Of a DNA stretch of 64,000 bases, positions 1 through 57,639 are shown in pieces. The number at the start of each line of letters is the position of its first letter. Within the stretch, counting starts at the first letter, position 1. The DNA is taken from the NCBI RefSeq assembly GCF_016097555.1, contig NC_054708.1, positions 62,460,537 to 62,524,536 of the forward strand. The letters are read 5' to 3'. The position numbers and the translations under genes are program-made. This DNA is from Gigantopelta aegis. Lineage: Eukaryota. Below the pieces are notes generated by a model. That model saw nothing but the letters and a program-made list of their open reading frames with translations, did no database searches and was not told where the DNA came from.

Positions 1-834
1 AATATGACACTGTCTCGATCTACAAAGTGTTTTAAATATGTTATCCGAAATTACCCACGATTCAATTTAAGATTAATTTAGTCTGCCAAATGATTTTGTT
101 TTTATAACGTTAAGTGTACGAGACGGGTGGGGAGTGAAGGGTATGTGGGCAACTGCCTCAAACCTGTTCACCATGCATACATTTCCATAATTCTACCCAC
201 AATCTTAGTTGTAATCCGTGTAAAAATATGTTGTCATTCGTTTGCAACCGTATATACACCGTGGGCACACTATACATTCACATCAGGCTGTCTGCAGGCA
301 ATCTGTTTGACAAGCCTCTGAGAATTGAAAATCTGCGTGATCCATTTATTGGTCACGCAGAAATAAATCCAGGTAACCCATTTCCTTTTTGTGTAACCTG
401 CTATATCCAAGTAAAGTAAATGGTGCTCCACATTCTGCACGAACAAAAAATAGGGTAATGCAAAATTAAATTTGCGCGAACGAAACGATCGCTCTCGCAA
501 TTCTCGGTGGCCTGTACCAATAGATATACTCTAATTTTTGTTTTCAAAATTATTTTAACGGCAAATTTCTGATCGAGGTAAATATTGTACCTAATTTTCA
601 GAAATATTTGAAAATAATTCTGGACTATCACTGCTTTCACTTTAAAGATGGGAAACTGGTGAATTTAAAAAAAAAAAGGCAATCAAGTATATATTAAGTG
701 AGGCAATGGAAGTGAAATGCTCTGGATATTACAAACATAGTATATATACTACTCAAAAGAATTTAAGGGTCAAACATTTATAACCAAATAAGTTTCAGAG
801 TGTATTAGATTGATGATGTAAACTACACCAAAAA

Positions 835-2265: not shown

Positions 2266-4150
2266 GACATTATGGTCTAGCTAATATAATTGACATTCAG
2301 AAAATAATATATATATATAAAAACACTGAATGGCAGTGTTGGAAGTTAACATCCAGACATTGATACATTTACTGTGATACATGCATATACTGTCTACCAC
2401 ATTTAATTACAAGATTATTTCTCCTGATTCAACTTCCGCATAATCTTAAATCATTATCCCTGGGCTGAACGTGTGTATTAAAGCAATCTTCATTGGGAAT
2501 CACAGGTTCAAGCAGTCTTGAGCCCAAATGTTTGCCTGAAGAGGTGCACGTAAAATGTGTTGTAACAATGCACCTGGAATTTGTGGTAAGGTATCAACAC
2601 CGTGAGTGGAAGACAACCTCTTAAACCTTTTCCAACGTAGCGTGGCTGCATCATGACCTCTGACCCGTTTTGTATAGAGAAGATTGCATAGAAACTCCTC
2701 ACCTCTGGTAACCACCTCTTCTGAAGGTGTATCACCTTAGGCCTGACCAAGAGCATCTATGATACTTTAAGAGCATTCATGAACACTGCAAAACTTCCTA
2801 ACTTACCAACACCCCTGATCTGCCCAGTTGTATCGGATCCAGTTAAACCATGAACTCCAAGCAATGACATAGCTATTTGGTTCCCAGTTTGTTATAACTT
2901 GGATATAATGGCACTCGTCTACGACTACTGTTATTGCATGTAATAATTCCAGTGTTTGGCCATAACTGATGTAACTGAACGTTTTGAAACAAAATTAAAC
3001 CCTACCAATCAGTGTCTCGAGTGAAAATCAACATCAGTTTCAGAATTGACAAGTTCAAATGCATGACACACCATGCGTGTATCTGCCCGTTCCCGAGAGC
3101 TAAAACCTGTAGTTGGTATGCGTTGCGTGGAGTGTTAGAACATGCTTTCTTGTAGCAGTGACAACAGGTTTTATGCACTGGTTGATTGCTTTTTCGGCCA
3201 AGCAAAATGTAAGTTCATCTTTATTCTTTTTGCTTGCTAGAACACTGCTTTGTGTCTTTTATTAGTGTCAGATTCTGAATTTACACATCTTCATTTTTAC
3301 AAGAGGTGGTACCATATCTGATTTGATCATTGATTCTAATAAAAAAAATGTATCATATATAATGCGATCACCCCCAGTAATGGGCTACTAAATGATCAAT
3401 CATCTGCGCAAAGGCGTGGCCTAATTCCTTACATGTTTTAAAATTTAAAGCATGCATCAATGCCTGTACAACTGCCATTGCATCTATAACAAGAAATATG
3501 TTGTTTCGAGTAGTTTTGGTTGCTAGAGTTGGAGTTCCATCTGTAGATATCACTTCTTGCAGGTCAACATCACGCTCCGACTTTGCCACGACTAAAGCCT
3601 TGCAATTAACAATCCACTGGATTTCAGTTGATACTCTTAATGTTTCTTTTCAGCTTTACTGTTTGGCGAACATGACTTCGGCCTCCTTGACTTCGGCCTC
3701 CTTTGACAACCGATCAAGTTCTGGTGCCATAAGGCAAACTTCACACGGGTTAAATGCTTTGTAGTTATTCCCTGAAGTTCTCCATCTCCTTTTAGTAGTT
3801 TGTTACCATGCTCCTGAGCTTGGTCAATTCCAATGCTGGTAAATAGTATGCTGTTGTTGCCAAAGTGAACTCGCCGGCTACCAGCCTGTCACGTACTAAA
3901 GATTATGAAAAAGATAACTCGACACGCCCCACTCGTCCATCAACCCAATCCCATGGTGAAACAAAAATCGCACATTACTATTTAAATGTTCTCAGTTTGT
4001 TTTAGAACGGTTTCCAAAATCAAAATTACTCAGTCTGTTATCACATTATAAAACTTCCAATAATAGAGATCAAATTTACAGTGGAATTTTACAAAAACAC
4101 AGTCTTTAAACCATACCACATCAGTTGTTGGTAAACACCTCCCGATTCCG

Positions 4151-6599: not shown

Positions 6600-7565
6600 G
6601 TAGAGATGTCATAGCAATGTATCGGACTATTTTATGGTGAAATCTGGTTTAATCCAAGGTGAAGCTCTATCGCCTACACTGTTTACTCTCTTTATTAACG
6701 ATCCGGAAATGGAACTGTTTGGTACTAGTGATCAGTCATATGAGCTGGATGTGATAAACCTTTGTCTATTTATGTATGCTGATGATACAGTACTTTTTTT
6801 CTGAAAGTGATTCTGAATCACAAAATATGTTAAATACATTATATCTTTATACCACAGAGTGGAATCTAAAGGTTAATTATGACAAAACAAAAATTGTTGT
6901 ATTCAGGAGAGGAGGTAATTTAAAACAAGATAAAAAGTCGTCATATAACGGTATTGAATTAAAAATTGTTGAATGTGTTAGCTACTTGAGTGTCGACTTA
7001 CAGCATAACGATAATTTCAATACTGCACACAAAGTTATTGCAAATCAAGGTAAAAAGGCTATATGTGCATTACTGTTTAAAACATGTCACTACTATTTGA
7101 AAATAGAAACATTATTATCATTGTTTGATACGAATGTCGGTAGCATTCTGCACTATGGATGTGTAGTATGGGTGTTTTAACAAAGTTAATAACTTAGAAT
7201 GTGTTAATATGCAATATTGTGAACGGATACTTGGTGTTAAAAGTATTTAATACTGCAGACGAGTTTACCCAATCCATGTACGCTATATTCCGTACATTCA
7301 CGAAATGTATTATATATCAATACCTGGTTAATATTTTTAGTTTACAATATTATCTAAAAAAAAAGCAATTTCCTCAAAATATAAACAAATATTATGTAAG
7401 TACAGACTATCTGCTCATAGTCTAGCAATAGAAACTGGAAGATATAACAATACTGAGAGAAAGGATAGAGTATGTAAACTTTGTAATATGAATGCTGATG
7501 AAGATGAGTATCATTTTATTTCGGTCTGTCCTTTCTACAAAATACTATCAGATGCAGGTGCATAA
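6600..7565 (+). mobile_element. Non-LTR retrotransposon (LINE) 3' fragment: reverse transcriptase plus a C-terminal Cys/His zinc-finger-like motif (CR1/L2/Jockey-like architecture). It is 5' truncated and carries frameshifts.
   Basis: Translation gives GLIQGEALSPTLFTLFINDPE (RT motif), LCLFMYADDTVLF (YADD box), NLKVNYDKTKIVVF, HYGCVVW. Near the end it gives CKLCNMNADEDEYHFISVCPFY, a C-terminal Cys/His motif that appears typical of non-LTR ORF2 tails, followed by a stop at 7563-7565. Confidence 0.75.
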
Positions 7566-8094
7566 AACATTATTATTACACCAGACCATCCTCTTTTAAA
7601 CTAATACAACTATTATCCATTGTCATCAGCTGTGACACCAATACGTCTGTTGTGAACACACAGCAAGTCTGAATTCCTATATTCATATATCTTTTGTACA
7701 CAGCTCACAAATGTTTTATTTGATATTTTACTAAATGTTTTATACTGCTATAATCGATTGACGATTTCTTTGCAGCTGGTTCATACAAGGATTCCATGTT
7801 TCAGAACTGAAATTAGAAATAAAACAATTCTAAATACTTAAAATGTGACATTCTGTATTATACTCCATGTGTTAAAAGTAATTAATAAACAACTTAAAGT
7901 GTCATCAGTTTAAAAACAAAACAAAATAAACCAAAAAATAGACACCAACCGAAGTTCATTACACTAAATGATATATATGTTTGGAAAGTAGTATATTTAA
8001 AAAACATGTTTTGTAGCGCCAGTTTTTAAATAAAAATATATCTATGTTTTAATGATTTTAAGGTTTTAAATTATTTTGTTAATGGATTAAAATG

Positions 8095-8390
8095 TGTTAC
8101 ATGGATCGGCCTCGGTGGTATAGTGGTTATGTAATCGGACTTGAGGTTGGTAGGTATTGGGTTCGAGTAAGTGCACCGCTAGGCTCAATGGGTAGGTGTA
8201 AGACCACGCACACCGAGTTTCACCAACTTCACAGGTGCGATAATGGGTGTGTTCCCGAGTGTATGACTCCACATGGAGGATGATTACCCGGCATACACTG
8301 CAAGTTCCGCGTGATATCGGGTGATACCAAGATAGCTCAACTGACAGCAAGCGTGGAGCACGAACCTGTCAAGTAGTCCCATACCGAAAT
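8095..8390 (+). mobile_element. Divergent tRNA-derived SINE, head type C
   Basis: tRNA-like head ggcctcggtggtatagtggttatg...gggttcgag, followed by ctcaatgggtaggtgtaagaccac. The latter segment is shared with the copies at 55013 and 45628. Confidence 0.5.
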
Positions 8391-8557
8391 GGAAATACTG
8401 TGGCTTCACCATTCATCTCATCATCATCCATGTTTGTAATGTCCACACAAAAAATGTGGCGTTTAAAACCAAATGTGTTACGTTTCTCACTAGAAATAGT
8501 ATCATCCATTTATAATTATAATAAATGTGTAAACAATTACAATACCAAAGCCTTTAA

Positions 8558-8940
8558 AGGGACATTCCCGAGTTTGATGCATTATAAGATGTTTCCGACT
8601 AATAAAATATTTCTACGATTAAACTTACATATTAAATATATTTTCTTGTTTAGAATATCAGTGTCTGTATATTCAATGTGTTTCTGGTCGTCTTAATATT
8701 TGTATGAAGCCCAAACTTGATTTTGTCTTCAAATACTTTCGTACGTACGAAAAAATCTGTTTTAGGAAATAAAATGAAATTTAAGCTAGTACAAATATTA
8801 GAACGATCAGAAACACGTTTAATATACAGCCACTAATATTTAATGCAGAAAAATATATTTGGTATGTAATGACAGTCGTTAAAAAGTATTTGTTAGTCGA
8901 TAACCTCTTTAAAAATTGCAGCAAACTCAGGAATGTCCCT
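8558..8940. mobile_element. piggyBac-like palindromic MITE, copy 1 (TTAA at 8554-8557 and 8941-8944)
   Basis: Termini agggacattcc and ggaatgtccct sit directly next to TTAA on both sides. The two halves are about 150-bp inverted repeats around a central ttcgtacgtacgaa palindrome. Confidence 0.7.
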
Positions 8941-10506
8941 TTAATAAACTAAACTATAAAAGCCTAAATCCAAGTTAGCGAATATACAGAATGCTTTTAT
9001 GTAGGGATAATTGTTTTATTACTATCAGGACATATAATGTAGACAAAAAAATAAAATATATATATATGTAGAAGATTTTAATGCTCACCTTTTTGTTGTT
9101 GCCAACCATCCACAGGTAGCCACAAAGAGAAACCCCTAGTACAAATACTATACTGTAGTTACATATTACATAACGTAACCATAACACATTCGGCGTTATT
9201 GGTTGGGGATACCAGTGCCACCATCCACCATATTTGTTTTAATTTTACTTTCACATTTTCGACGCTATTAGATAGAAAACTAGTATAAATAAAAATTAAA
9301 TTAGTTTAGACTACTGGCACGTATACAGGAATTTATGTTGTTTGCAGTGGTTTGGAGACTGTGGGGGAAGAAACAATGAAGTGCGGGTCCAGAGAGCCCC
9401 CGAAAAAACATACAAACTGTTTTTTTGCTTTAAAGGAATGCTTAAGCAAGGCTTTAGGACTGGTAGGCATATTGAACAATATATAATTCACATTATTGCT
9501 TAATATCAACAAGTATATTGGTATATTTAATTAATAAAACGGTTAGATGTGACGGCTAATTAAACGAAGATGCCCGAATTTAGTCACATTAGCTTTTCTG
9601 CCAAACAGCTATATATAGTTGCAAACGAATCACTGCTTATTTTTACATGGATTACCACTAATATTGTGGGTAGAATGATTGCAGAACGTGGTCAAAAGGT
9701 TTCAGGTCATCTCATTTTGCCTGAATATCGCTATCGTTTTTGCCCGAATTTGAAGATTAGCTCCAGCACAGGGAGGCGCAGTTGTGCTCCCCTCCCGCCC
9801 CGTCTTGTACCCTTATAATATAATATCCGCGAAAGTATCGTCACATGCAAGGTTTACAATACGTTCATTTTTAAATATTTGAATATATGATTTGATTTTT
9901 TTTTTTTAAAGTCCATTTGTTTTGCAGTGTTGGCGCAGGTGTTGTTCTGCTGGAACATGTTATTCTGGTGACAGGCAAAATAAGTCACAAAGTGAGGTCT
10001 AAGGACTTGATCGATATATTCGGAGAGCCGTGACATTATTATCTCTGTCTGGGCCAATATTCTGAAATATTACCAGGTCCTACTGTGTAGTTGATCCAGA
10101 TTCCTCCCCAAACCATGATGCTTTGCGCATCCTATTGGTCTTTCCATAATTGACGTATGCATTCATAGTCATCAAAGAAAAAACATTCCAAGAGCAACTT
10201 TACACTGAAAGCTGTCCAGCGTTCAGAAAATAAAACACGTTAAGCACTAGTTTATTTTTATGTAAGGACATCCAAGATGGTGTCATTCACGTTTGACGTC
10301 ATTTCCATTGAAAAAGACACCGCGTCACATATTCCTACGTCATTGTAATAACCAGTAATGGCTGACTGGAATTAAAGTTGCATATATAGTTTACAAAAAC
10401 ACGATGTATTAAGCTTGAGATTATATGATAAGAGATTCTTACCCTCGTGTGTTTATGTATCGTCAATATCATATATTAGGAAGAAAAATAATGTATTATG
10501 CTCGCC

Positions 10507-10913
10507 AGACGATACAGAAGCACACACACTCTCTCTCTTTCTCTCTCTCTGTCTGTCTCTCTCTGTCTCTCCCCTGCGCGTGCTATAACCTCATCGTGGT
10601 GCAGGGGTGTAACATTCTCTTTGAGAATGGCCAATACAGCACAAATTGAAATTTTGAGTAAAAGTCAGTATCTGTCTTTGATATTTGTATTTTTGCAGTT
10701 CTTTACACTGTTTTTATTTAAATCTTGAATTTTTTTTATTGATGTTGATCATCACCGTATTTGTTTGCATTATCATAGTTTGACACTCAATAGCCGATGT
10801 ATTTTTCGTGCTGGGGTGTCGTTAAACATTCATTCATTTATTCATTCATTCATTCATTCATTCATTCATTCTCTCTGTCTCTGTCTGTCTCGCTCTGTCT
10901 CTGTCTCTCTGTC

Positions 10914-11310: not shown

Positions 11311-14198
11311 AGATTATTGCTTAAAATCACATTGGTGTACAAGACTGAATCGAAACAATAAATCAGTCGGAAATGCATACATTGTCTTGATAGATTGAAA
11401 CAATACCATGATAAAGATGGATGCATATTTTGTAGATATCAAAATTCTGTGCTACATTTCCAACACTGTCTTCATTTGCAACCTTCTTGTCACAGTCTTC
11501 AATTATGAACATTATACCAGTTTACAAAATGCTATATTGCCTTCTTCTGTTGCCATTTTCTAGCCTATATCATCGGCACTTGGTGTCACTGGGTCATATT
11601 TTACATTACAATCTAGTTGAATTAATGTCGTGTATGGTTATCAAACGATCCCTACATAGTTACACTGGGTCTCTTTTGATTCCGCCCTTCCTTGTACAGA
11701 ACAGAAACATATCCTTGCAGGCTCTACAAACATGTTCATTGTCAATACAGATATTTGCACCCGATATTTGTGAGAGCAATGGGACTCATGGAATGCCAAA
11801 CACAAAATATAGTCTCTGTTTTCTAAGAAACAGGCAACTTACTTGTATCCCTCAATTACAACATGAGCTGCATGCAATAGCAACTATCAGTCAGCTTTCA
11901 CTTGAAAATACCGGATAGCATACAACGTTGGATATTATTTTAATAGTTGTTGTTAAAACGCTTTGCCTTGGAGTATATTTGGATATACTGCCTTCCTTCA
12001 TTCTTTGACTAGGAAAGTAATTAATTTGGTTTTATTGGTGATCTGACTCCGAAAGGTTCTCAATTGGATTACAATATATGGTGCTATGATACTCGGTTGC
12101 CCCTGTTTAGAATCGGCTTTAAATAATTATCTTTCGTTGCTCTTAGCAAAAGTCCCATGGTATATAACAACCACAATGTTAACACGTTCTGTACGGCTTC
12201 CACCTCATAATGCTTTATGCAACATTGATTTACGACCTCCAAAACTTAACACAATCACTGATTACTACATGGACCAAGTCAATCCCATCGACAATAATTA
12301 TACATTTTCTGTTAGACTATCTGCTCATATCAAATTCATCTGCAACAATGCCCATGGTAGAGATACCAATGAATGTTATAATTTGCTTTGTTCCAGCTCA
12401 GTGATGCATTCAAACAGTGATTGGTCTTTGATTCATTTTCCTGGCACGAATGGCTAATGTTTCAGCTTTTTGTGTTTTGATTTTATCATGAAATGTCTTG
12501 TTATATATATTCGCTCACCCTTGAAGGTTGCATAACATTGTTCTTCGTCACGTCAAATGCAGTATTCACTGAAGATACCTTTGCAGTACAGATATTCTCA
12601 GCTTCATAAACGTTTGACTTTGGAAACTCTTTGCGATGACACTTTGATGTTCTGCTGTATCCTTTTAGCAACAGCATTGTGCCCTAACCTTGTTGTGACC
12701 TTAGGGTCCGGGTATCTTTGTTCACTTTAATTTGGTCTTTTTTAGAAATGCATTCACAAATATTGTTGCCAGAAATATGATCCACAATGCTGCCAATCTG
12801 AAGGCTTCAAACATATCAGGGTGCTCATATGGAAGATAGGTGTTGTGCTTAATAAGTTGGTGTGTATGTGCCGTAGAATCACTAACTTAACAACACTAAG
12901 AAGGCTAAACAATGCATCTATGTAACTGTGACGTATCGTCAAATATTTTGAAAACTCTTCATTTCTATGGGACAGACATTTTCATAAATCTTTCCAGAGA
13001 TTGTTTAACTCTGCAAAAAATGTGGTTGTTTTTTTGCCCAAATAGTAAACTGACCAGGCTAGTCTCACAACACTTTTAGTACTTCATAATATACTTGTAC
13101 ATGGTCGTACATCTTCACTTCAAGGACTCGACTAACTACGTCTTCAGCAATCCTATGTACAAGCCTTGAACTCACCATCAAATGATGCCTATAGCACTGA
13201 GAATGATTCCATTCTTAGGATAATAATGACATAGCCGTCGTTATGTCTTTGCAAACTGTTTGAATTATCAGTATGGCAATGGTTTGTAAAGGCAGTTTTA
13301 TTCTGATACGCTCTGGTTCACTGTATTAATGCAATTCATAAATAGGTAAACTTGAATATAATAAAAGTTTGTTGTTTTGATTTTGAAGTTGTGGAATCAA
13401 CAGTATGCCTTTTTGGGTATGGTCATGTTACGATTTGTTACTATCTTCAATGAACTCTTTGTACAAAGATACAATTTTAAACAATAATACCGTTGTAGTC
13501 ATTGTTATATTACAAAGATAAATATATGATCAATATGGGTTTTAAATCAATAACATAGACTTTTAATCGGTTTTAGTCTAACGAGAGCTTATTTTAATGA
13601 CATCTCACCAAAATATAACGTCAAATTCACTTTAAATGTAGGGTCTAAGTAGTATTTAGCAGCCTAATGTAGATTTGTGTGCAATAAAATCTTTGAAACA
13701 GAACATTTGAGGGTGTCAACCTAAACCTTAAGAGCAACTACTTTTGTGAAATAGTGGAAATTGCATTACGTAATGTAAAATAAAGTGTTACGTGAAACCC
13801 TAACCCTCTATGGATGACACGATTGCTTCTATTTCTTAACTTTATATTGCACTAACTTGCTTTTCCCTTATTTTTGCTTTGACAATCCTTATAAATATTT
13901 TATAATGTGTTTTATTTAGTCACTGTTAACTATGCCATTGAAATATTGCTGTTGAGAGAATAGGAGTTGGGTTATAAAATGTATAATTACACAGCAATTC
14001 CTGCAACAAAACTTTATTTATAGTATGTAAATAATCACTGGATGTCCAAATGAGCTTCTGCCTAAACTGTATTTTAAATTTCTACCGAGAAATAAAACTT
14101 GTATAAATTGTATTTTCCAATATTACAGAATAAAGTGTTATATGAGACCATGTTTTGTATTCCTAAATGCTCTGACAAATAGTTTACAATGCTTTTAA

Positions 14199-14574
14199 AG
14201 CGACATTCCTGAGTTTGCTGCAATTTTTAAGATGTTATCAACTAACAGAGACTTTTTAACGATTGTAATTACATATCAAATATATTTTCCTGCATAAAAT
14301 ATCAGCGGCTGTATATTAGAAGTGTTTCTGATCATTCTAATATGTGTACTACTTTAAATTTCATTTTATTTCCTAATATATATTTTTTCGTACGTACGAA
14401 ATTATTTGAAGACAAAATCCAGTTTGGGCTTCTTACAAATATTAAGACGACCAGAAACACATTGAACATACAGACACTGATATTCTAAAACAAGAAAATA
14501 TGTTTAATATGTAAGTTTTATCGTAGAAATATTTTATTAGTCGGAAACATCTTACAATTCAGCAAAATGTCCCT
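14199..14574. mobile_element. piggyBac-like palindromic MITE, copy 2 (TTAA at 14195-14198 and 14575-14578)
   Basis: Terminus agcgacattcctgagtttgctgca on the left and gcaaaatgtccct on the right; central cgtacgtacgaa; same family as 8558-8940. Confidence 0.7.
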
Positions 14575-17546
14575 TTAATATAGTCACTTTTTATTTTATT
14601 TTATAGCAATTCTGTATAAATATAAATGTCGTGGAAATGGAGGTAGGGTCACACAACGGGTAGATACACACAGAAAGCTGTGAGTCCTGAAATGCTATAA
14701 TGTTTTCTATTCCCGGGGATGTAGGCCTTGACAAAAATCATTATTTGCCTTTTCATTTTATGTTTTTTTTTTCTTCTTAGTATTTATTTGCCACTATTCG
14801 CTTGAAGTGAGATATATGTATGTAAACAGAGGTTCTGTAAATAAAGACAATTTAAAAATATTTATCATTCCAGACGAAGTCGAAAGGGTCCGGAACCCCC
14901 ACCCCTGCTCAGGGCAACGTTTTCCCCCACTTATTTTAATGAATGAATAGGCAGTCTTAAATGTGTTTCATTTAATGAGTTACATATGACCCTCCCCCCA
15001 CTGCAAAAAATTCTGAATTCGCGCCTGCATTATATGTCTCACCACCCATACTCCATAAATTCAAAATTATTTTTGACCGATTTCTAACTCCTCTCCAACC
15101 AATAACACTGGAATTATATATTGCTACGGTCCTAAATGTACAACTAAAATATTAAATTACGCGCATATTCGTGCAAGTTATGGGCCTTGACTAATATTAA
15201 CCTAATCACTTCAAATAGCAACTACTCGAAGAGTAATCCATTTACCACAGCATAACAATCAGTTTTAGAACATCACAACTGAAAGCAATTTCCCAAACCT
15301 CCAAGCACATGGATAAGTAGCTTTCGTCCTTGCAGTAGGTGTTCTGTTAGAAGTATGGCACTTCTATCTCGAACACGTCACGTGTAAACGCGAGGTGAGT
15401 TCTTGAAGGGTTTCATCAAATTATTGCAGATTACCAATGCCTGGCGACGGAATGCGACGCACAGTTTGTGAAAACTCTTCTACTAATTAGCCGAGGCAAG
15501 GCCAAGCAATGGAAGCATACACGATTGAACCTAGAATGTTCTATCTTAATTTGATCATAATTAGGTTAACGTCCAATCAAGACAAATTATGTTTGATACG
15601 GAATTATTGTTGACAATCCTGAAGGCTAATCTAAAACGTTCACTGCAAGTGAGGAGAGTTCAAGTTACTGATCAAGTTAGCATCTTTTTTTGTGGGAATG
15701 TTTGGTAGATTTGATAAACTTAATACTTCTTGCAGTTGTATGTATTAGTGGGTTTTTGGTTTCAGCGCCATCCCCTGTAGGCCTGGAGATAAAGACAAAC
15801 TCTGGTCAAACCCAAGACAGTGGGAAATATTATTGTAGGCATGTAGATCTCATGGATTTCATGTTAGTAGGTCTTGTCCTGCTTAATGTCAAGTTATTTT
15901 TTTTTATGTCGCATAGGAACAAACCTTAACCGAGATTTCATATATAAGTAATCATCTAAATTTCATATATAAGTAATTATCTAATATAGTTATTTAACTT
16001 TGAAAATATCTTTGGCGTTAACATTGGGGACATTCCATATCAATTCATCACAGTTTTTGTCATCATCGTCACTCATTTTCTTAAAATATTGTAGCATGGT
16101 TGGTATTTTTGAGAACCTCCCTGTCATGGAGAGAACTCTCAGGCGAAGTCAGAGGTTATGCCCACGACACGTGTGCCTGAACAGTTCTCTGGTGTAAGCA
16201 TGCCAAAACCTTCCCACACTAAATTATATTTACTTATAATTACTTTTAGAGATATAGGCTATTGAGAAATTTTGCCTAATTAGCATGACCATAATAAGGC
16301 ACCTAGAGAATTGATTTTTATACCATTTTAAGCTCGTTTGAAACCCCTTGTAATCTATGGAAACGTTTTTTTTCTTCTTTTTTTTCAAATTCACATTTTA
16401 AATATTTAACCCTCATCTACGAAAAATGTATATATTTTAAAATAAAATAAGCAACAATTACGGTTTATCATGCCTTAAAGTTTTTTTTTTTTTAATCAAT
16501 TCTATGAACACCATTTTTATTTTTTAAAAATACAAGAATGATCGTATTCTAATTGACATACATGTATGAACATTTTAGAAAGCTTTCTTAAAAAACAACG
16601 TTTTAAACGTTCTACACCCTTTTTAAACCCGCGTTTTCGCCTTCCCATCGTATATGACAAAGTTACGCACTGTTTTTACTAGTAATCTGAAACAAAAACG
16701 CGATCACGTTTAAAACATTTTTATTTCACCTTGTCCAAACATCATTTGGACTCCGTCAACAGATAATTTGAAACAATTTGAGATACTCTTTCACGTAACA
16801 ACATTACACTTAAATCTGGCCGTTTTACGGTATGCATATGACCATGAACTGTCATTTGTGTGTGTTTTTGAGATAGAGTTCTTTCTGAAAAGGGGCGTTA
16901 TTCGCACGACGAGATTTACATCATTCGCAAGATTAACTGCATAAACAAGGCGGAATAAACGAATAGCCCAAACAGCTGATTCAAACCAGTGGTATGATTG
17001 GAGTTACGCCCTGCCTACTTTCATCAGATGTTTTGCCTATTCAGCAATTTCAGTGACAACATGGCCAACAAAGTAAGACAGATTGTTCCCCAAGCAGCTA
17101 CATGTCTAAGAACGGGCGTGAACAGTTGAAAATGCCTAATGTATTTGCAGTTCTGTACTTATGGGGATCCTTCTATAATTTGATGATCGCTCTAAAGTTT
17201 AGACTCATCTAGACACTACTATGGAACAGATGCCACGAAATGCGATGAATAAACTCTGGTTTACGTCAATGAAAGACAAATTATTAGGTCTGTATGTTGA
17301 AAGAATCGCATTTTATCACGTAAAATGCAAATAATAAACTAAACGCATTAAATTACCAAAGCTCACCTCAACGTACCCACTGGCGGGTTTCACATTTCAG
17401 AACACTGACTGAGTTCATTACACAGATTTGAAAAAGAACCCAAAACACCCCCCCACCCGCCCCCAAAAACCCCCCTCAAAACAACTGCTAATATTTAGCT
17501 TGTTGCTGCTTTCTCACATTCATTTAAACTTAAGCGTATGAGACGT

Positions 17547-24110: not shown

Positions 24111-25752
24111 TTTTAAAATGCCGTTGGAAAAAAAAGAAGAGAATTTGGTGCAAGGCAAAAAATGTGCTGTGGGGATATTAAAAATTAAAATCTCCGCGGC
24201 ATTAGCCCTCGACAATTACAGGCGTTTGTCTGTAAAATCACGTGGTATTTCGTTAAGAAAATAACATTACGTAGGAGGAAATACTAATTCAAGAAAACGA
24301 AAAATCCTCGTATGGAATGGAATATACGTGTACCTTCTCACCTCGATATTTCACTTTTATAATATTGGTTATGACATGGAGAGTTAACTTCGCCACTGAA
24401 ATGTCATATAATGATGCTAAAAGTACATAGCGACATCAAAATTGTTTAAGCCTAATAATGCTATTTACTGGCTACGCTGAAATCACAGTTGCACTATGCA
24501 ACCCCACCATTCATAGAGGAAAATGTAATTTTGGGGAAATAGCTGCATCTGTGATATAAATGAGAGATTACAAAATAATATATTCACGGAATTGGACTTC
24601 CTAGTGTCTAGACTCGTAATGTGAGTTATTAAAAATAAGCTCTTTTGAAAAACAAAATATATCCTAGTATATATAGTTTGGTATATAAATTGCATTTTAT
24701 TTAAACACCATTGGGATATTCTGGGTATTGAAAATGTACCACATCTGCACCAGTAGAACTAATTTTAATCGGATTGCTAACAACACTGCGTAGTCCCCAA
24801 TGTCCAGGTAACATTTCGTCTGTAAATAATAATTTAAATATTGACCAATCACACTTCACCTTTTATAACGTTATTTGGGAGCATACAAATTCTAAAAATA
24901 TCGGGCGAGTCTATTTTAGTGGCCGCAGTACAGCGAACCATACCAATACGTACGTGGTGGGTTATCAGTCTTCAATTTTACATTAAATATTATTTATTTA
25001 TTTATATAAAAAAACAACCTAAATCAGTCTTCAGTTTTACATTACAAATTATTTATTTTATAAAATAAAACATGTTTTAAGCCATTCGTAATTCACACGA
25101 AACATGTATACCCTCAGGATAATTCGGAATGTTTTCAAATTATTTTTAAATCACTGGCAGGATTCTGCAAGTAAGGTTTTGATTGGTGGACATGAGCTCC
25201 AACTGGCTGGTGTTAGATCCACATGTAATAGTGGAGCTAATTTTAATTAGATTGATTCGAGGGCTTATTAATGTTTAGGGTTCAAGTCTCACAAGAATTA
25301 ACTGCGCGCTGTTGATTTTGACCTCGCGCATCAACATTTAAAAAAATAATTTCCCTCGGTATGACGTCGATTTTTGCCATGCTTTTTTTGCTATGACGTA
25401 AAACCGCATTTGGAGCTAAAATGCCATTGCACATGAACTAGGACGTGTATTCTAATTTCAATTTAAATATGCCCCTTATTTTGGTATCAAATAAACTCAC
25501 CTTTTTTCAGCAATCCATGCGTTAAAAAAAGCTGCATCGCCGCATCAATTTTGGAACTTTGGTCTGACCATTGGTAAGGCGTTCTAAGAGCATCGAGTCT
25601 AGTTCTGCAACACACTGCCTCGTCTAAAACCAAGTCGTCAAATGGCAGATACACTTTCTTATATTACAGGGACCGTCCTATGTTCTCTGCCAGTTTAAAT
25701 TGTTTCTGACTAACAAAGCCCTTTGAACAACTGAAATTACACATTGTATACA

Positions 25753-25754
25753 TG

Positions 25755-25786
<32 letters not shown>

Positions 25787-25790
25787 TGTA

Positions 25791-25858
<68 letters not shown>
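25753..25858. repeat. Compound microsatellite (ATGT)n(GT)n(TA)n
   Basis: Visible runs. Confidence 0.9.
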
Positions 25859-25863
<5 letters not shown>

Positions 25864-26146
25864 CCTATACCTTACCCATGATATCCATGTCATAAACCCA
25901 TGTGATAATTTACTTTATTAACCCGGTTAATAATGAAATGCAAATTTGCAAGGTCTCTAGGTAATGTGTTGCTGTGGATAGGTCATTTGCTTACAAGCCA
26001 ACAAGACCCGTGTACCTGAGCGTAATGTTTTCAAAGATTTGTTTAAAATGCGTGACGTCAAACTAATCTGTGCTAATCGTGATGACGTCATATTATCGAT
26101 GGTGGCGACTTCAGTACTGTGATTTACTAAAAAACTTAAAGCCTCA
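25855..26146. repeat. Dispersed/segmental repeat X, copy 1 (paralogue of 27352-27630), starting at a compound microsatellite
   Basis: tttatcctata(c/a)cttacccat(g/a)atatccatgtcataaacccatgtgataatttacttt...tgacgtcaaactaatctgtgctaatcgtgatgacgtcat is shared by both copies. Confidence 0.8.
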
Positions 26147-26912
26147 CACCCTAGTTCCATCCAGCGAAAATAAATTATAATTTAGTTAATCTACAAATCT
26201 GTAACACACTTAGATCACGTTTTTATCAAATGGAGTGAAAAAGCAGGTTTTATATCGATAAATACCAAGGGAATCCCCATGTCCCAATTGCTTGAAATAA
26301 TTTTGAAAGTTAGTATTCTGATGTCACCGGTAGAAGCACAACAATGCCTACGTCACGACAAATTTCACAGACTTGGGGTGCGTTCCTTTCACCTCTCCTG
26401 GACATGTTCTAACTGTTCTGTCCTGGTTGTATCCCCTCTCCAGATATCGTAAGACTTAGCAAAATTATTGGTTTTAAGGGTTTGTAACGTTTTGTATTGA
26501 GACACTTACTTGTCTGAACTTTATTGTTACTGAAAATGCTCACGAACTGTGAAGAAAAATCTCACAAATGAACAACAACAAATCGGATGTTGATTGCGCG
26601 AACCGTGCACGAGAAAACAAACCGAACCAAAATGATAACGGTCACGTGATATACCAACGTCTGTGACATTAAAAATAGATTGGACCTCGCTTGCTTAACG
26701 GTTTTTTCTCGACAACACGTTTTGTGAAAAAATGCAAAAAATGCATTTCGTGGTTTTACAAACATCAGGATTACCAAAAAGCACTTCAGGTGAATGGAAA
26801 TGTGTATTCTAAATAATAAAATGTAAGTAAAGTGCAATTTTATTTGTGAAAAATGGGGTTTAATAGCGAAAAACAACGCCGTAATGGTTAACAAATAAAC
26901 GTAACTAGGGTG
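26147..26912. mobile_element. Non-autonomous DNA element of about 765 bp with imperfect 15-bp TIRs. It is present in copy 1 of the X-Y duplicate and absent from copy 2; it is TTAA-proximal and possibly piggyBac-like.
   Basis: The filled site reads aaaaacTTAAagcctcacaccctagtt...aactagggtgtgtcccttTAAttaaaatgttatttt. The paralogous empty site at 27625-27645 reads tttactaaaaaaaagtaattagaatgttatttt. The termini agcctcacaccctag and ctagggtgtgtccct are inverted. The insert has no ORF. Confidence 0.55.
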
Positions 26913-26920
26913 TGTCCCTT

Positions 26921-27103
26921 TAATTAAAATGTTATTTTAGAAGTGTTATAGGATAAATAGAATTCGCTACTCTTTTTTTTAGTATGTAAAATATCAACCT
27001 CGTCTAGTTAATTGGTATTTGTCTCGGCAGAGCCTCGACAAATACCGATTAACATAGACTCGGTTGATATTTTCCATATTAAAAAATACTCCTGACGAAT
27101 CCC
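26921..27103. repeat. Segmental repeat Y, copy 1 (paralogue of 27631-27815)
   Basis: gttattttagaagtgttataggataaatagaattcgctact...gtctagttaat(t/c)ggtatttgtct(c/t)ggcagagcctcgac...gactcggttgatattttccatattaaa is shared by both copies. Confidence 0.8.
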
Positions 27104-27152
27104 CCATTCTTACCTTCACAGGATAAAGATGATAATCATCATCAATAACCTG

Positions 27153-27630
<478 letters not shown>

Positions 27631-27815: not shown

Positions 27816-27830
27816 GTATATATATATATA

Positions 27831-28650: not shown

Positions 28651-29337
28651 TATTAAGGATTCGTCATATACATATTTCTATTACTATTACAAACATTCGG
28701 CAGTCAGAAATACTTTGTGTATATGTGTATATAAAAGCAATCTAATGAATTGTATATGTAATTTTAGTCATTAAAATGCTTTGTTGGTCAGAAACGTGTT
28801 ACATTAACAGAAAACTCAGATCAGTATTTTTTATTTATGTTCTTTTTTTCTTCTTCTTTTCTTGTTTTGAGATAACAGAACGGTATGTGGTTTAATAATA
28901 CTCCGCCTGTGCCTATATGGAATATTCATATCGAAGTTCTAGAAAAAACCCTGTTCTTTTGCTTACTTTAAAGCATTCCATTTGTTTCATGTTATGAAAG
29001 AATCATGAATTTTACACAGATAATCTGCCTATATTAAGGGCCTCTTCTAGCAGTAATGGCACATATTTCTGCGGAAAGATCTCACTTTACACGATTATGA
29101 TATCTGATAACCACAACAAAATAGCTATTAATGCCAGCAACTTGTTTTCAATGTTATCCGACCGTAGTCCCATAAATACATTCGGGTTACACTTGATACA
29201 CGTGTCCTCAACAGTTTGTATAGATCCTGGCGATGACGTGTAATGCTGTCCTTGTTTCTATCTCACATTCTGGTAGTTAAGTTTTTTAATATTTGCAAAA
29301 CAATGTCAGTTCGATCTATAATCCTGATTGTTAAACA

Positions 29338-47022: not shown

Positions 47023-47825
47023 GTAAATACATCTGTGAAAATGTGTATTATAGTTTTGCATACAAAACCAAACAGAACACTACAAATATTTTACAATGCT
47101 GATCGTAAAACGTTTAATACTTCTAACACTGAACGTAGCGTAACAAGTCGACAAGCATTAATCGTGGATAAATGACTATACAAATCTTATAATCGCAGAG
47201 TTAAAAGAAAATACCAAAGGTTTGAAGGCAATTTAATTGGTTACCTTAGAAAAAGTAATCATAGACAGCTTTTTAATTTATGTAAAAAGCGCCAATGTAT
47301 ACCAAAATCGCATCATTCTGTGGATGATGTTTAAAAACATTTTAAAGGGACATACCCTTAAACACTAAGGTATATATATTTTTACTATTATAGCCGTTTT
47401 TGATAACCGAAATCATATTTTACTTAGATGTTATGCTTTAGATTATCAATTCGAAGTGTTTTTGGTCTTCCTGGTGTTTTTAATATCACAAAATGCATTT
47501 ATCATATTTTTAAAAACGCACGTGCGTCTGAGAAGTAACAGTTATGGAGTCGAGTTTTTGTCTATTTTTAGAGGGTATTTCACCATTTCAAAGTCACAGA
47601 CTCATGTTTTACATTATTGTAACTTTATCCAAATGTGTTACAGGTTTTTAGATTAACTAAACTTAGTGTTAATTTTCACGGGTTGAAACTAGGGTATGAC
47701 CCTTTAAATATTTAAGCAACAACACGGACATCTCTCCGGGTGCAGTAGAAGAACACAATGAATGCATTTACTCTGAGCTCGACTACCCAGTCACCGAAGG
47801 ATAGATCCAGAATGTAAATAAACAG

Positions 47826-48095: not shown

Positions 48096-48270
48096 AATAG
48101 TTTGTTTAAACCACTATCCTGGAAGAAAGTACTGGACAACAGGGTTTGTCCTTTTTAAGGCATGTTGCCCTTAGGAAGGCAAAGGTGCATCACAAAATCC
48201 ATAGGCCTACTGATATTAATAAACGTGCTATAAACACTAACGCTATACAGCAACATATAACGTAAATAAT
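48096..48270. repeat. Unclassified repeat of about 170 bp; second copy at 53727-53885
   Basis: Both copies share gtttaaacca.tatcctgg.agaaag.ctgga.aacagggtttgtcctttt...taggaaggcaaaggt.cat.acaaaat.ccat.ggcct.ctgatattaataaa...gctata.ag.aacatata.cgtaa. Confidence 0.5.
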
Positions 48271-48936
48271 TGTACTCTGTGGCCAATTTACCCATTGCAA
48301 ATTCCGCCTATCTCAAATTCGCCATCTATTTCTACCCCGGAATAGATGCCAGAAGTTATGGCCGTGCGTAAACCTTAAGTGAATATATACACGGTGTAAA
48401 AGATTATCCTGTTCTGACCTTATTTCGGCAGTAGTAACCTACGTGGAAGAATCAGTCTTTTCCTCTCATTGTGTAGAGTGTCGAAATAACGTCATGTTTT
48501 AGATACTAAAATGTTAACAATGTGCTGAGGTGTCGAGTCAAACTATTATTATTATCCCTTTCCAAATAGTCGTAGTTATTACAAAATGGGCTTTAACATA
48601 CGTCCAACTGTTCGTTTTGCTTTGTTTTGTTTGTTTGTTTTTTTGTGTTTTTTTTTTTTTTTGTAGGGTTTACCATTTGCAAGAAAGGCTATCTATATAA
48701 AAGTATGTTGAATACAGAATAATGTTTATCGTAGATACCATTCTTTCTGTTTTTGACTATCTTTGTCTCTCTTCATATGTCTCTCAGCCTATTTGTTTGT
48801 CTGTCTGCCTCTCTCTGCCTGTTTCTGTTTGTCCGTTTCTCCATTTGTTGTTTTTTTCTGTCTGGCCGTCTCTGTCTTTTTCAGACATGCAAATGCACAT
48901 ATACTGTCTGGTTTCTCTCTCTCTTACTCTGTCTAG

Positions 48937-52530: not shown

Positions 52531-53887
52531 CAATTTTTAAGAGCTTGAAGTCTGAAGTTGATGTTTGCACGGAGGATATGTTCCAGAGGACGCGCTACTC
52601 AGATTATCAACTAAGCTCAGATTATCAACTATGCTCAAAATATCAAGTGCCACGACGGAATTGGCCAACTCAACAGTTGTGTTGTAAATTTTCCCCACTC
52701 ACCGACTTACGACGGGTAAGCTCAGATTAACAACTAATCGGACGTAGGAGTTGTATACGACGAGAATCTAGTTGTAAAAGTACTCAGACTAGTAACTGCA
52801 CAGTCGTGAGATCGACATGTTGGCCAGATTCGTCGTGACAGTTGATAGTATGAGATTAGCATTAGTTTCGGTGTGTTTTGTAGCCTTTCCATCTGGGGTA
52901 ATAATATGGCTTCCTGACTGTCCACCGTGACGTCTTCAGGATTCACTGGGGAGGCAGTTGAGGACGACGGTTTCCTCGAAATGTGTAAAAAAAAAAGAGT
53001 CAATTTTATCACAAAATATATCCTGTGACCATGTCAACTGGCTTTGTTTGGATTTTTAAATTGTTTATGAATGTAGGTGTGTGTTGGACTGATTGATACA
53101 TTTATGACGATAACTGATACATTTATGTTGATACCTTCCATTCATCGATAGGTGTTTCTTTAATGGCAGTTTGCAGTTAAAACAGTTTAACATTTATTTT
53201 CGAAAATTTCGACTAGTACCACAAAAGGTCGAATTTTGAACCAAAATGCAAATGCTGCAGCAAGAAAGAAAATTGAATTTTGGATTCACAATGGAAATGA
53301 AATAAAATTGCATACATTTTTTGCCCAGATGAAACTATTTTGTTTTTTACAACCAACACACTCACATTTATCGCAAATCACAGGACTTTAAACGTGTCGT
53401 AGCTCTTGGACTAAAACGTTTCTTGGTACATGGTACAACACTATCATTTGACTGATATTTTCAGATGGAGCATTCTTATTATGGCCTCAGATTACAGTTA
53501 TCTTCCCATTTGGTTGTCTGCTGTTTTGACTGTGATTATTTCATTGCAGACAGCTATGAAGTGGCAACTATTTGACTGAAGTTCACAGGGGAGAGCATGT
53601 AGTTTGTAAATATGTGTAACTTGTTGATATTGAAGACTTGTTTGTGGTAATTCTGGCCCATGCAAAAGTAGTGCTTTTTGTGTAAAATGGATGTACTCCG
53701 GCCAGGTTTAGTGGGTGCTTTTGTTTAAACCAATATCCTGGGAGAAAGAGCTGGAAACAGGGGTTGTCCTTTTCAGAGTATGTGTCCCCCAGGTAGGCAA
53801 AGGTACATACAAAATTCCATGGGCCTGCTGATATTAATAAAAATGTTATAGCCACTAAGGCTATAAAGAAACATATAGCGTAATTAA

Positions 53888-54271
53888 AGGGACATTCCTG
53901 AGTTTGCAGCATTGTTAGATATTTCCGAAAAATAAAATAGTTCTACGATTAAACTTAAATATTAAATATATTTTCTTGTTTAGAATATCAGTGTCTGTAT
54001 ATATTCAATGTGTTTCTGGCCATCTTAATATTTGTAAGAAGCCCAAACTGGATTTTGTCTTCAAATAATTTCGTACGTATGAAAAAATATATTTAAGGAA
54101 ATAAAATGAAATTTAACGTAGTACTAATATTAGAACGATCAGAAACACGTTTAATATACAGCCACTAATATTTTATGCATACAAATAAATTTGATATGTA
54201 ATTACAATCGTTAAAAAGTCTCTGTTAGTCGATAACATCTTAAAAATTGCAGCAAACTCAGGAATGTCCCT
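53888..54271. mobile_element. piggyBac-like palindromic MITE, copy 3 (TTAA at 53884-53887 and 54272-54275)
   Basis: Termini agggacattcctgagtttgcagca and gcaaactcaggaatgtccct; central cgtacgtatgaaa. Confidence 0.7.
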
Positions 54272-54479
54272 TTAATTGTCGTCTGTAGCCATATCACCAG
54301 AATGGTTAAAAATATCTTTGTATGTCTCACTGAGAAGTTTCCAAGAGTAGCTTGTACAGGAATACAATGTTGGATGTTATAATGTTTTTTTTGCAATTAT
54401 GATTACATCTACTCTTTACGAACGGGAAATGTGCTCATGTTAACATACAGCTATTTTATTTTGACACTTAGTCTAGACA

Positions 54480-56462: not shown

Positions 56463-56948
56463 AAGAAGATAAAGATATGATAATTATTTATGTATTTAGA
56501 AACAGAACTTTTCTTCACATATGTAAGCGAAGGACGTCGACATATGAATGAAAGTCACGTCCAATTCAATTACACAGCCAGAGGACGATTGTGTAAAATA
56601 ATTAAAAAAGAACGGACAATTCTGTAATATAATTAAATTAGGTTTTGTTAACTTTCCAGTTCCAATCAGTTGCCTGTGTGTTGTGATGCGGTGTCTGGAC
56701 ACAAACATTCTCTATAATTTTCAATATATACAATCTAACTAGATTTGTATAGAATATGTCTACACCATTAGATGTCTGTATAATATTATGTGATCTTGCA
56801 GACCTCTTCAGATACCAACAAATTCAACAATGCACGAGGATGCCTAAAACATGTTGGTGTACAAATGATGAAATTGTTCCAAAAATGTCACGTTATTATA
56901 TAGAAAGCTTTGGCCGCTTTGACCGCGGTGATCTTGGCTACAAATTAA

Positions 56949-57332
56949 AGGGACATTCCTGACTTTGCTGCATTGTAAGATGTTTCCGACTAATAAAATA
57001 TTTCTACGATTAAACTTACATATTAAATATATTTTCTTGTTTAGAATATCAGTATCGTATATTCAATGCGTTTCTGGTCGTCTTAATATTTGTAAGAATG
57101 AATGAATGAATGTTTAACGACACCCCAGCATGAAAAATACAACATATTTGTAAGAAGCCCAATACAATGAAATTTAACCTGGTACAAATATTAGAACGAT
57201 CAAAAACACGTTTAATATACAGCCACTAATATTTTATGCAGAAACATACATTTGAAATGTAATTACAATCGTTAAAAAGTCTCTGTTAGTCAATAACATC
57301 CTAAAAACTGCAGCAAACTCAGGAATGTCCCT
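56949..57332. mobile_element. piggyBac-like palindromic MITE, copy 4 (TTAA at 56945-56948 and 57333-57336), with a nested SINE-tail fragment at about 57095-57170
   Basis: Termini agggacattcctgactttgctgca and gcaaactcaggaatgtccct. The insert gaatgaatgaatgaatgtttaacgacaccccagcatgaaaaatac replaces the central segment. Confidence 0.7.
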
Positions 57333-57639
57333 TTAACGAAACAAAATTGTATGTATAGTTGTTTGGCCCTGAATGTTCACGAGTATCCACCTCAGATGTA
57401 ATACAAGGAATACACCATCTCCCCACACTACTGAATATCCTCGTTCAACCATTGATTCATGGCTGGTGTTTAAAAACTAGGACGTTTTTTTGTTTGTTTT
57501 TTACTAATAAAGTCTCTTTTAATAATTTAAATTAGGAGTACTTACATTTTATTATTTAGAATATTCATGTTCGTACTCCTGAGGTGGATCCGGTTATCCA
57601 GGTTTTTGTAGTAACCCAAAATGCAGTGCATTTGGCACT

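What the first reader, a model, noticed from the sequence alone, without database searches (positions are those of the whole stretch)
8554..8944. Palindromic MITE family of about 380 bp, always flanked by TTAA on both sides (piggyBac-like); four copies in the window
The copies at 8558-8940, 14199-14574, 53888-54271 and 56949-57332 share termini TTAA|agggacattcc...ggaatgtccct|TTAA. Each half is about a 150-bp inverted repeat of the other, around a central ttcgtacgtacgaa palindrome. TTAA on both flanks in 4 of 4 copies is the target-site signature of the piggyBac superfamily. Copy 4 has its central segment replaced by a SINE-tail fragment, so the family predates at least some SINE activity. No autonomous partner encoding a transposase is present in the window.
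Basis: partly seen in the sequence, partly recalled or inferred. Interest (0 to 1): 0.55.

Follow-up and report, generated by a model that had tools for sequence, protein, structure and literature searches.

The report
Hairpin-shaped TTAA mini-transposon, Kolobok type

Summary
Four copies lie at exactly the stated coordinates. They are 89-92% identical to each other, are flanked by TTAA on all eight sides, and carry no gene. Each copy is a near full-length palindrome around TTTCGTACGTACGAAA.

I added three things:
- Two related families (47342-47707 and 26136-26923) and two degenerate fragments share the terminus TTAA|AGGGACA. In all, 12 of 12 intact ends abut TTAA.
- A paralogous "empty site" (48101-48292) carries a single tetranucleotide where copy 3 has TTAA-element-TTAA. 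TTAA is therefore duplicated target sequence, not part of the element.
- The odd centre of copy 4 is a 45-bp SINE 3' tail with its own 13-bp target duplication, plus a separate deletion of about 55 bp.

The piggyBac assignment is not supported. piggyBac ends start with a conserved C and end with G. These elements are 5'-AG...CT-3', which is the RR...YY signature of Kolobok, the other TTAA-specific superfamily. They also match the AGGRR motif of the Xenopus T2 MITEs. Two transposase-bearing Kolobok elements fetched here have TTAA|AG...CT ends, one of them AGGGGAAC.

No autonomous partner was found, and same-species DNA was out of reach. Verdict: an old Kolobok-type MITE family of low interest.

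The parts
8554..8944 (+). Family A copy 1: TTAA (8554-8557), 383-bp element (8558-8940), TTAA (8941-8944). Central palindrome at 8737-8752.
   Evidence: 95.9% to consensus; hairpin z=-13.7
14195..14578 (-). Family A copy 2, opposite orientation: TTAA, 376-bp element (14199-14574), TTAA. One end is mutated to AGCGAC and the other terminal repeat has a 7-bp deletion. Central palindrome at 14386-14401.
   Evidence: (93.6%)
53884..54275 (+). Family A copy 3: TTAA, 384-bp element (53888-54271), TTAA. It is inserted into a ~190-bp host repeat (53720-53887 plus 54276-54298).
   Evidence: (95.2%)
56945..57336 (+). Family A copy 4: TTAA, 384-bp element (56949-57332), TTAA. It was rearranged after insertion.
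   Evidence: (87.6%)
57086..57156 (-). Secondary insertion inside copy 4. A 45-bp 5'-truncated SINE 3' end with an (ATTC)n tail lies at 57099-57143, flanked by the 13-bp duplication ATATTTGTAAGAA (57086-57098 and 57144-57156). Next to it, about 55 bp containing the central palindrome are deleted.
   Evidence: 96-98% identity to the SINE 3' ends at 10798-10843, 59201-59246 and 62228-62273; the 13-mer is single at the homologous site 54028-54040 of copy 3
48101..48292 (+). Paralogous empty site: a second copy of the host repeat that carries copy 3. It runs uninterrupted and has a single ATAA (48266-48269) where the filled site has TTAA-element-TTAA.
   Evidence: (157/193 = 81% identity across the junction; 17 of 23 bases match beyond it)
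47342..47707 (+). Family B: a 358-bp element with the same terminus (TTAA|AGGGACATACC...GGTATGACCCT|TTAA). It is not a full-length palindrome.
   Evidence: fold z=-2.25
26136..26923 (+). Family C: a 780-bp element related to B. Its right end is AGGGACACACCCTAGTT, its left end has decayed to AGCCTCACACCCTAGTT, and TTAA lies on both sides.
   Evidence: 19/24 terminal-repeat match; B-C similarity E=2e-16
25664..25744 (+). Degenerate A-like terminal fragment (TTAC|AGGGACCGTCC...), cut off by a microsatellite.
   Evidence: (72% over 82 bp)
28754..28819 (-). Degenerate A-like subterminal fragment that has lost its terminus.
   Evidence: (76% over 66 bp)

Best explanation
These are old copies of a non-autonomous cut-and-paste DNA transposon (a MITE) of the Kolobok superfamily, of the T2-MITE type.

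Shown:
- The element has no coding capacity.
- Its two ends carry a near-perfect inverted repeat of about 24 bp (AGGGACATTCCTGAGTTTGCTGCA).
- Every intact end abuts TTAA.
- A related uninterrupted site carries one tetranucleotide in place of TTAA-element-TTAA.

Inferred:
- A Kolobok DDE transposase encoded elsewhere in the genome binds the AGGGACA ends, excises the element and integrates it at TTAA with a 4-base staggered cut. Repair of that cut duplicates TTAA.
- The whole-length palindrome of family A most likely arose when one element end was duplicated head-to-head. That gave two equivalent transposase-binding ends around a short palindromic centre.
- The arms had already diverged by about 25% in the master copy before it amplified. 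All copies share the same arm differences: 89-92% identity in one orientation against 72-75% in the other.
- The copies then decayed neutrally. They differ pairwise by about 8-11%, and one later took a SINE-tail insertion and lost its centre.

Two further families in the window (B and C) use the same AGGGACA terminus. That points to a common transposase source.
For: Copies, termini and hairpin.

TTAA at 12 of 12 ends of families A, B and C. TTAA occurs at only 0.84% of window positions.

Empty site: GTAA-TTAA[element]TTAA-TTGT against the paralog GTAA-ATAA-TTGT.

No coding capacity:
- The longest stop-free stretch is 80 aa, with no relative among 5.8 billion proteins.
- tblastn of 120 Kolobok homologues, 5 Kolobok cores and piggyBac against the window found nothing.

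Superfamily:
- Kolobok makes TTAA duplications and has 5'-RR...YY-3' termini, unlike piggyBac (PMC9587614).
- T2 MITEs are defined by a TTAA target and a terminal AGGRR. Full-length Xenopus Kolobok ends include AGGACATGTC and AGGGGAACTA (PMC6004289).
- Bivalve Kolobok consensus sequences run AGACGATTTC...GAAATCGTCT or start AGGCATACC (PMC10294476 supplement).
- Two transposase-bearing Kolobok elements were fetched here. L001 8368-14186 (Patella caerulea) reads TTAA|AGCTTAACTC...GAGTTCAGCT|TTAA. L010 4841-11815 reads TTAA|AGGGGAACTGCATC...|TTAG and also carries a KolX-like P2RX7_C gene.
- Palindromic Kolobok MITEs are already known (Kolobok-N2_XT, PMC12676858). The mean Kolobok MITE length in insects is about 386 bp (PMC5199201).

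Neutral decay: copy-specific substitutions mostly break hairpin pairs, and the covariation term is unfavourable at +8.31.
Against: - No autonomous element with AGGGACA ends was found. The link to a Kolobok transposase rests on the terminal signature and the TTAA target, not on a demonstrated partner.
- The exact motif AGGGACA was not seen on any transposase-bearing Kolobok element examined. The closest were AGGGGAAC and AGGACATG.
- Only 6 full elements and one empty site were available.
- The empty site is a paralog at 81% identity and reads ATAA, not TTAA.
- 123 kb from the nearest available assembly held no copy, so genome-wide behaviour is unknown.
- Three of the 12 ends deviate from AGGRR because of mutation.
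Confidence: 0.8

Rival explanations
1. piggyBac-derived MITE: a piggyBac-family transposase with unusual end specificity mobilises it.
For: - TTAA on both flanks of every copy.
- piggyBac MITEs with TTAA duplications are well known (PMC2872659).
- piggyBac is present across molluscs (PMC10294476).
Against: - In 157 piggyBac-like elements the terminal repeat begins C[C/A/T][C/A/T]. The first C is the one highly conserved base, and the terminal G is required for excision (PMC5381638). Here the ends are A...T.
- The termini fit the alternative TTAA superfamily instead.
- No piggyBac coding remnant was found in the window.
Confidence: 0.12
2. The true duplication is TA (Tc1/mariner, Stowaway-like) or TTA/TAA (PIF/Harbinger, Tourist-like), and the rest of the TTAA belongs to the element or to a target preference.
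For: - TTAA is itself a palindrome that extends the terminal repeat.
- The empty site alone cannot tell a 2-, 3- or 4-base duplication apart, because all three predict the same empty sequence.
- Tc1/mariner elements are present in the window.
Against: - The outer T and A are invariant at 12 of 12 ends. Chance gives about 0.31^12, or roughly 8e-7, at the window's base composition.
- A TTA duplication would require an asymmetric element plus a fixed extra base in every copy.
- The AGG... termini are not the usual ends of Tc1/mariner or Harbinger elements (own knowledge, not tested).
Confidence: 0.04
3. The long hairpin is a functional RNA locus (a small-RNA precursor or regulatory stem-loop), and its spread is secondary.
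For: The predicted hairpin is very stable (z=-13.7). MITE hairpins are known sources of small RNAs in other organisms (own knowledge).
Against: - There are no Rfam matches.
- Among the four copies, substitutions mostly break predicted pairs. The only two double changes lie in the misaligned rearranged centre of copy 4.
- Copy 4 has lost the hairpin tip.
- Families B and C use the same ends without forming a hairpin.
Confidence: 0.04

Closest known systems
T2 family MITEs of Xenopus (Xmix/T2-A1, T2-C and others), non-autonomous Kolobok elements
   Same: - TTAA target duplication.
- Terminal motif AGGRR (here AGGGA).
- A few hundred bp long, non-coding and multi-copy.
- Full-length Xenopus Kolobok ends such as AGGACATGTC and AGGGGAACTA resemble AGGGACATTC (PMC6004289).
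   Different: - The host is different: mollusc-like repeats rather than frog.
- No sequence similarity was shown beyond the first 5-8 terminal bases.
- No matching transposase was identified.
- Family A is a whole-length palindrome.
Kolobok-N2_XT (Xenopus tropicalis Kolobok MITE)
   Same: It is a 496-bp non-coding Kolobok MITE with terminal inverted repeats and internal repeats 'of palindromic nature' (PMC12676858).
   Different: The species and size differ.
Autonomous Kolobok (Kol0 lineage) elements, e.g. L001 8368-14186 (Patella caerulea) and L010 4841-11815
   Same: TTAA flanks and 5'-AG...CT-3' termini. L010 starts AGGGG.
   Different: They are 6-7 kb long and encode the DDE transposase (L010 also a KolX-like protein). 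Their terminal repeats differ from AGGGACATTCC after the first 2-4 bases.
piggyBac-derived MITEs (e.g. coral CMITEs, human MER85/MER75)
   Same: TTAA duplication, short terminal repeats, non-coding (PMC2872659).
   Different: Their ends are CCCTT...AAGGG, that is 5'-C...G-3'. Here the polarity is the reverse, 5'-AGGG...CCCT-3'.

Membership tests
MITE (generic) | Short (<800 bp), non-coding, multi-copy, with terminal inverted repeats and target-site duplications | tested here: met
   - Four copies of 376-384 bp.
- A terminal inverted repeat of about 24 bp.
- TTAA flanks.
- 27-30% G+C.
- No ORF with relatives.
Kolobok superfamily (non-autonomous member) | [quoted passage not shown] | tested here: met
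   12 of 12 ends abut TTAA. A paralogous empty site has a single tetranucleotide. Only one empty site is available, and it reads ATAA.
Kolobok superfamily (non-autonomous member) | Termini 5'-RR...YY-3' (PMC9587614) | tested here: met
   All 12 ends read AG inward, so each element runs AG...CT.
Kolobok superfamily (non-autonomous member) | Terminal repeats shared with an autonomous element encoding a Kolobok DDE transposase in the same genome | not testable with these tools
   - No Kolobok coding sequence is in the window.
- The source genome is not in the searchable collections.
- Kolobok elements from other species have AG... ends but not AGGGACA.
T2-MITE type | Terminal AGGRR next to TTAA (PMC6004289) | tested here: met
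   9 of 12 ends read AGGGA. The exceptions AGCGA, AGGGT and AGCCT are single decayed ends whose partner end is intact.
piggyBac superfamily (non-autonomous member) | TTAA target-site duplication | tested here: met
   Same evidence as for Kolobok.
piggyBac superfamily (non-autonomous member) | Terminal repeat beginning with conserved C (CCC / CC[C/T]T) and ending with G | tested here: not met
   The ends are 5'-AGGGAC...GTCCCT-3'. The piggyBac motif comes from 157 elements (PMC5381638) and from PMC2872659.
piggyBac superfamily (non-autonomous member) | Partner encoding a DDE_Tnp_1_7 transposase with the same ends | not testable with these tools
The source genome is unavailable.
Foldback (FB-like) elements | Very long inverted arms built of tandem subrepeats | tested here: not met
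   The arms make up the whole element. However, no tandem subrepeats were reported inside the copies at the score cut-off used (>=200), and direct reading of the sequence shows none.

The most novel reading that the evidence does not exclude
Three families in one 64-kb window share the terminus AGGGACA. This may mark a mollusc branch of T2-like Kolobok elements whose end motif (TTAA|AGGRR) has been kept since before the split of molluscs and vertebrates. That would imply an unusually conserved transposase-end recognition. The source genome could then hold a still-unrecognised autonomous Kolobok lineage with AGGGACA ends. A bolder variant is that the 185-bp-arm hairpin copies feed the host's small-RNA pathways.
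Probability: 0.25. Interest if true: 0.3.

Novelty: new member of a known kind. Interest (0 to 1): 0.15.

Why it matters
It matters mainly for annotation. A TTAA duplication alone does not identify piggyBac. Kolobok makes the same duplication, and only the terminal bases (A/G...C/T against C...G) separate the two. Filing this family correctly avoids inflating piggyBac content and points the search for the mobilising enzyme at Kolobok transposases.

The nested events also give a relative chronology for repeats in this genome: a MITE inserted into an older repeat, and a SINE tail inserted into a MITE. Beyond that, this is an ordinary decayed MITE family.

Tried and rejected
- **Collection scans for more copies.** The 20-mer terminal repeat and a 28-mer internal block gave 0 hits in metagenome contigs. 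The terminal repeat gave 0 hits in viral contigs.
- **Protein search with the longest stop-free stretch of the element**, hoping for spurious ORFs called on other copies: no candidates.
- **Exact look-ups of window ORFs to reach the same species.** None is on record.
- **Tc1/mariner ORF as a bridge to a related genome.** ENA assembly ERZ25071447 shares the Tc1 element at 93-95% and the SINE at about 80-85%. Its six loci (123 kb) hold no copy of families A, B or C and no TTAAAGGGAC. It is probably another species, or the family is clustered.
- **Literature search for the terminal sequence.** It returned only unrelated PCR primers.
- **Searches of paper supplements for AGGGACAT/AGGGACAC as an element start.** Only internal matches were found.
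- **Saccostrea (L002) and Patella vulgata (L003) Kolobok-like genes.** No terminal-repeat pair was detected around them.
- **My first global-alignment measure of self-complementarity was uninformative.** Shuffled controls scored as high. I relied on BLAST and folding z-scores instead.
- **Sola superfamilies, which also make 4-bp duplications.** I could not document their target sequences from the papers held and did not pursue them.
- **106-bp satellite arrays next to copy 4.** I checked whether they sit inside TTAA-bounded elements and found no clear termini.

Full report
**1. The observation**

Reading the four stated regions shows the same element each time. Bodies lie at 8558-8940, 14199-14574, 53888-54271 and 56949-57332, each with TTAA immediately outside both ends. 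Copy 2 lies in the opposite orientation to the others.

The 390-bp consensus, including both TTAAs, hits the window four times over its full length at 95.9, 95.2, 93.6 and 87.6% identity. Pairwise identity among copies is 89-92%. The terminal 15-mer with up to 3 mismatches occurs 14 times against 2.3 expected, and no shuffle reaches that count.

The palindrome claim holds:
- The consensus aligns with its own reverse complement from end to end (76.5%, E=2e-77).
- Copy 1 folds as single-stranded DNA into one long hairpin at -80.8 kcal/mol, z=-13.7.
- The 16-nt centre TTTCGTACGTACGAAA is intact in copies 1 and 2, has one mismatch in copy 3 and is missing in copy 4.

The window itself is eukaryotic and rich in repeats. 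It holds mollusc-type SINEs, Tc1/mariner and LTR-retroelement fragments, microsatellites and satellites.

**2. More of the same kind in the window**

The terminus search also found two further TTAA-bounded elements.
- Family B (47342-47707) reads TTAA|AGGGACATACC...GGTATGACCCT|TTAA.
- Family C (26136-26923) has the right end AGGGACACACCCTAGTT and a decayed left end AGCCTCACACCCTAGTT.

B and C are related to each other (E=2e-16). They are not full-length palindromes. Two degenerate A-like fragments lie at 25664-25744 and 28754-28819.

Across A, B and C, 12 of 12 ends abut TTAA. Similarity between the two ends of each element stops exactly at TTAA. TTAA occupies only 0.84% of positions in the window. 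A blind scan for any TTAA-bounded inverted-repeat pair recovered the family A copies and found nothing in 20 shuffles.

**3. Is TTAA target or element?**

TTAA is itself a palindrome, so the copies alone cannot answer this. The flanks of copy 3 turned out to be part of an older repeat of about 190 bp, and that repeat has a second, uninterrupted copy at 48101-48292. It is 81% identical, and the alignment runs straight through the insertion point with 17 of 23 matches beyond it.

- The filled site reads GTAA-TTAA-[element]-TTAA-TTGT.
- The paralog reads GTAA-ATAA-TTGT (48266-48269).

The element plus one tetranucleotide is therefore extra, and one TTAA-equivalent remains at the empty site. This excludes the idea that both TTAAs belong to the element.

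There is a caveat. This test cannot by itself separate a 4-base duplication from a 2- or 3-base one, because all three predict the same empty sequence. What separates them is that the outer T and A are invariant at 12 of 12 ends (about 8e-7 by chance). There is also no additional direct repeat outside TTAA in any copy.

**4. Which superfamily?**

Two superfamilies make TTAA-specific duplications, and they are separated by their termini. [quoted passage not shown]

For piggyBac:
- A survey of 157 elements found terminal repeats starting C[C/A/T][C/A/T]. The first C was the one highly conserved base, and the terminal G was needed for excision (PMC5381638).
- Coral piggyBac elements and their MITEs all start CCC(T/A) (PMC2872659).

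The elements here start AG and end CT at all 12 ends. That fails the piggyBac feature and meets the Kolobok one.

More specifically, the Xenopus T2 MITEs, which are non-autonomous Kolobok elements, are defined by a TTAA target and a terminal AGGRR. Full-length Xenopus Kolobok ends include AGGACATGTCAACCCC and AGGGGAACTATCATGA (PMC6004289). Here 9 of 12 ends read AGGGA.

**5. An independent check made here**

I built a profile of seven Kolobok (Kol0-lineage) transposase cores taken from the supplement of PMC9587614. I searched the protein collection with it and fetched the DNA around hits.
- In Patella caerulea (L001) the transposase gene sits in a 5.8-kb element. It reads TTAA|AGCTTAACTCTGGTTACAAA...TTTGTAACCGGAGTTCAGCT|TTAA.
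- In L010 (ENA ERZ18545498) a 7-kb element carries the transposase and a P2RX7_C-like (KolX-type) gene. It is bounded by TTAA|AGGGGAACTGCATC and the inverted copy followed by TTAG.
- Curated bivalve Kolobok consensus sequences run AGACGATTTC...GAAATCGTCT or start AGGCATACC (PMC10294476 supplement).

Transposase-bearing Kolobok elements, including molluscan ones, therefore do have TTAA|AG...CT|TTAA. None has exactly AGGGACA, so the specific partner remains unknown. Palindromic Kolobok MITEs are already on record (Kolobok-N2_XT).

**6. No partner here, and no access to the source genome**

The Kolobok query did hit L001, which served as a positive control.

Attempts to reach more copies failed:
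- two metagenome scans and one viral scan;
- a protein search with the element's longest open stretch;
- exact look-ups of window ORFs.

A Tc1/mariner ORF led to ENA assembly ERZ25071447, which shares that transposon at 93-95% and the SINE at about 80-85%. Its 123 kb contained no copy of A, B or C. Genome-wide copy number, further empty sites and the autonomous element therefore remain untested.

**7. History of the copies**

All four copies align well in one orientation (89-92%) and poorly in the other (72-75%). The two arms had therefore already diverged in the master copy before it amplified. Differences of 8-11% between copies indicate old insertions.

Copy 4 shows two later events.
- A 45-bp insert (57099-57143) is 96-98% identical to the 3' end, with its (ATTC)n tail, of a SINE present at 10798-10843, 59201-59246 and 62228-62273.
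- The insert is flanked by a 13-bp duplication, ATATTTGTAAGAA. That 13-mer is single at the homologous place in copy 3. This is the signature of a severely 5'-truncated retroposition.
- Separately, about 55 bp containing the central palindrome are deleted.

**8. Is the hairpin itself selected?**

Across the four copies, 139 pairs are predicted. Copy-specific substitutions mostly break them. The two 'compensatory' cases lie in the rearranged centre of copy 4. The covariation term is unfavourable at +8.31.

Rfam has no match in the window. Families B and C use the same ends without a hairpin. The hairpin is best read as a by-product of how family A arose, probably a head-to-head duplication of one end, and not as a conserved RNA. 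That origin is inferred, not shown.

**9. Verdict**

The mechanism, a non-autonomous cut-and-paste element that inserts at TTAA, is well supported. The piggyBac label is not: the termini fail the piggyBac feature and meet the Kolobok/T2 features.

| Reading | Confidence |
|---|---|
| Kolobok | about 0.8 |
| piggyBac | about 0.12 |

This is a new member of a known kind, unless it is already in Repbase or Dfam, which I could not check. Interest is low.

Noticed in passing
window 41307-45499: A 4.2-kb minisatellite of a 16-bp unit (CAGACAGGTACTCCAC, about 262 copies, 80% matches). It creates long spurious ORFs such as 44235-45515 (426 aa).
   Followed up: no
window 57682-58074, 59963-61032, 62990-63732: Arrays of a 106-bp satellite. 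They are embedded in a unit of about 3.03 kb that is itself tandemly repeated: identical SINE ends at 59201 and 62228 are 3027 bp apart. Long poly-C tracts follow each array (about 58375 and 61396). No TTAA-bounded termini were seen around them.
   Followed up: partly
window ~30870-39580: A tandem segmental duplication of about 4.35 kb. Repeat families D15, D16 and D19 show 100%-identical blocks spaced 4353-4355 bp apart. It carries several SINE copies.
   Followed up: no
window 740-2308: A Tc1/mariner element with a DDE_3 ORF at 960-1541 (minus strand). It is 93-95% identical to copies in ENA assembly ERZ25071447 (L004-L009). Named protein hits are only 52-59% identical (Littorina saxatilis), so the source species stays unidentified.
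   Followed up: partly
window 27884-28597: Nested perfect 16-bp inverted-repeat pairs surround a Tc1-type HTH ORF (28129-28572). This is probably an internally deleted Tc1/mariner element with long terminal repeats.
   Followed up: no
window 19874-21799 (minus strand): Three consecutive ORFs (168, 311 and 170 aa) that look like the gag, protease and start-of-pol region of an LTR retrotransposon. They were not scanned against any library.
   Followed up: no
window 25664-28833: The two degenerate A-like fragments face each other as the two ends of one minus-strand copy would. Between them lie 3.1 kb of microsatellites, the family C element and the Tc1-like piece. This may be one old copy split by later insertions. 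No internal A sequence was found between them.
   Followed up: partly
L010 4841-11815 (ENA ERZ18545498, contig ptg000017l): A Kolobok element with ends AGGGGAACTGCATC, nearly the same as the Xenopus XKol-A5 end AGGGGAACTATCATGA. It carries a transposase gene, a P2RX7_C-like gene, a nested reverse-transcriptase ORF (6768-9245) and a faint GIY-YIG hit (9452-9847).
   Followed up: partly
L001 8368-14186 (Patella caerulea JAZGQO010000007.1): A 5.8-kb Kolobok element with terminal inverted repeats of at least 45 bp and intact TTAA on both sides. It may be a fairly young autonomous copy.
   Followed up: partly
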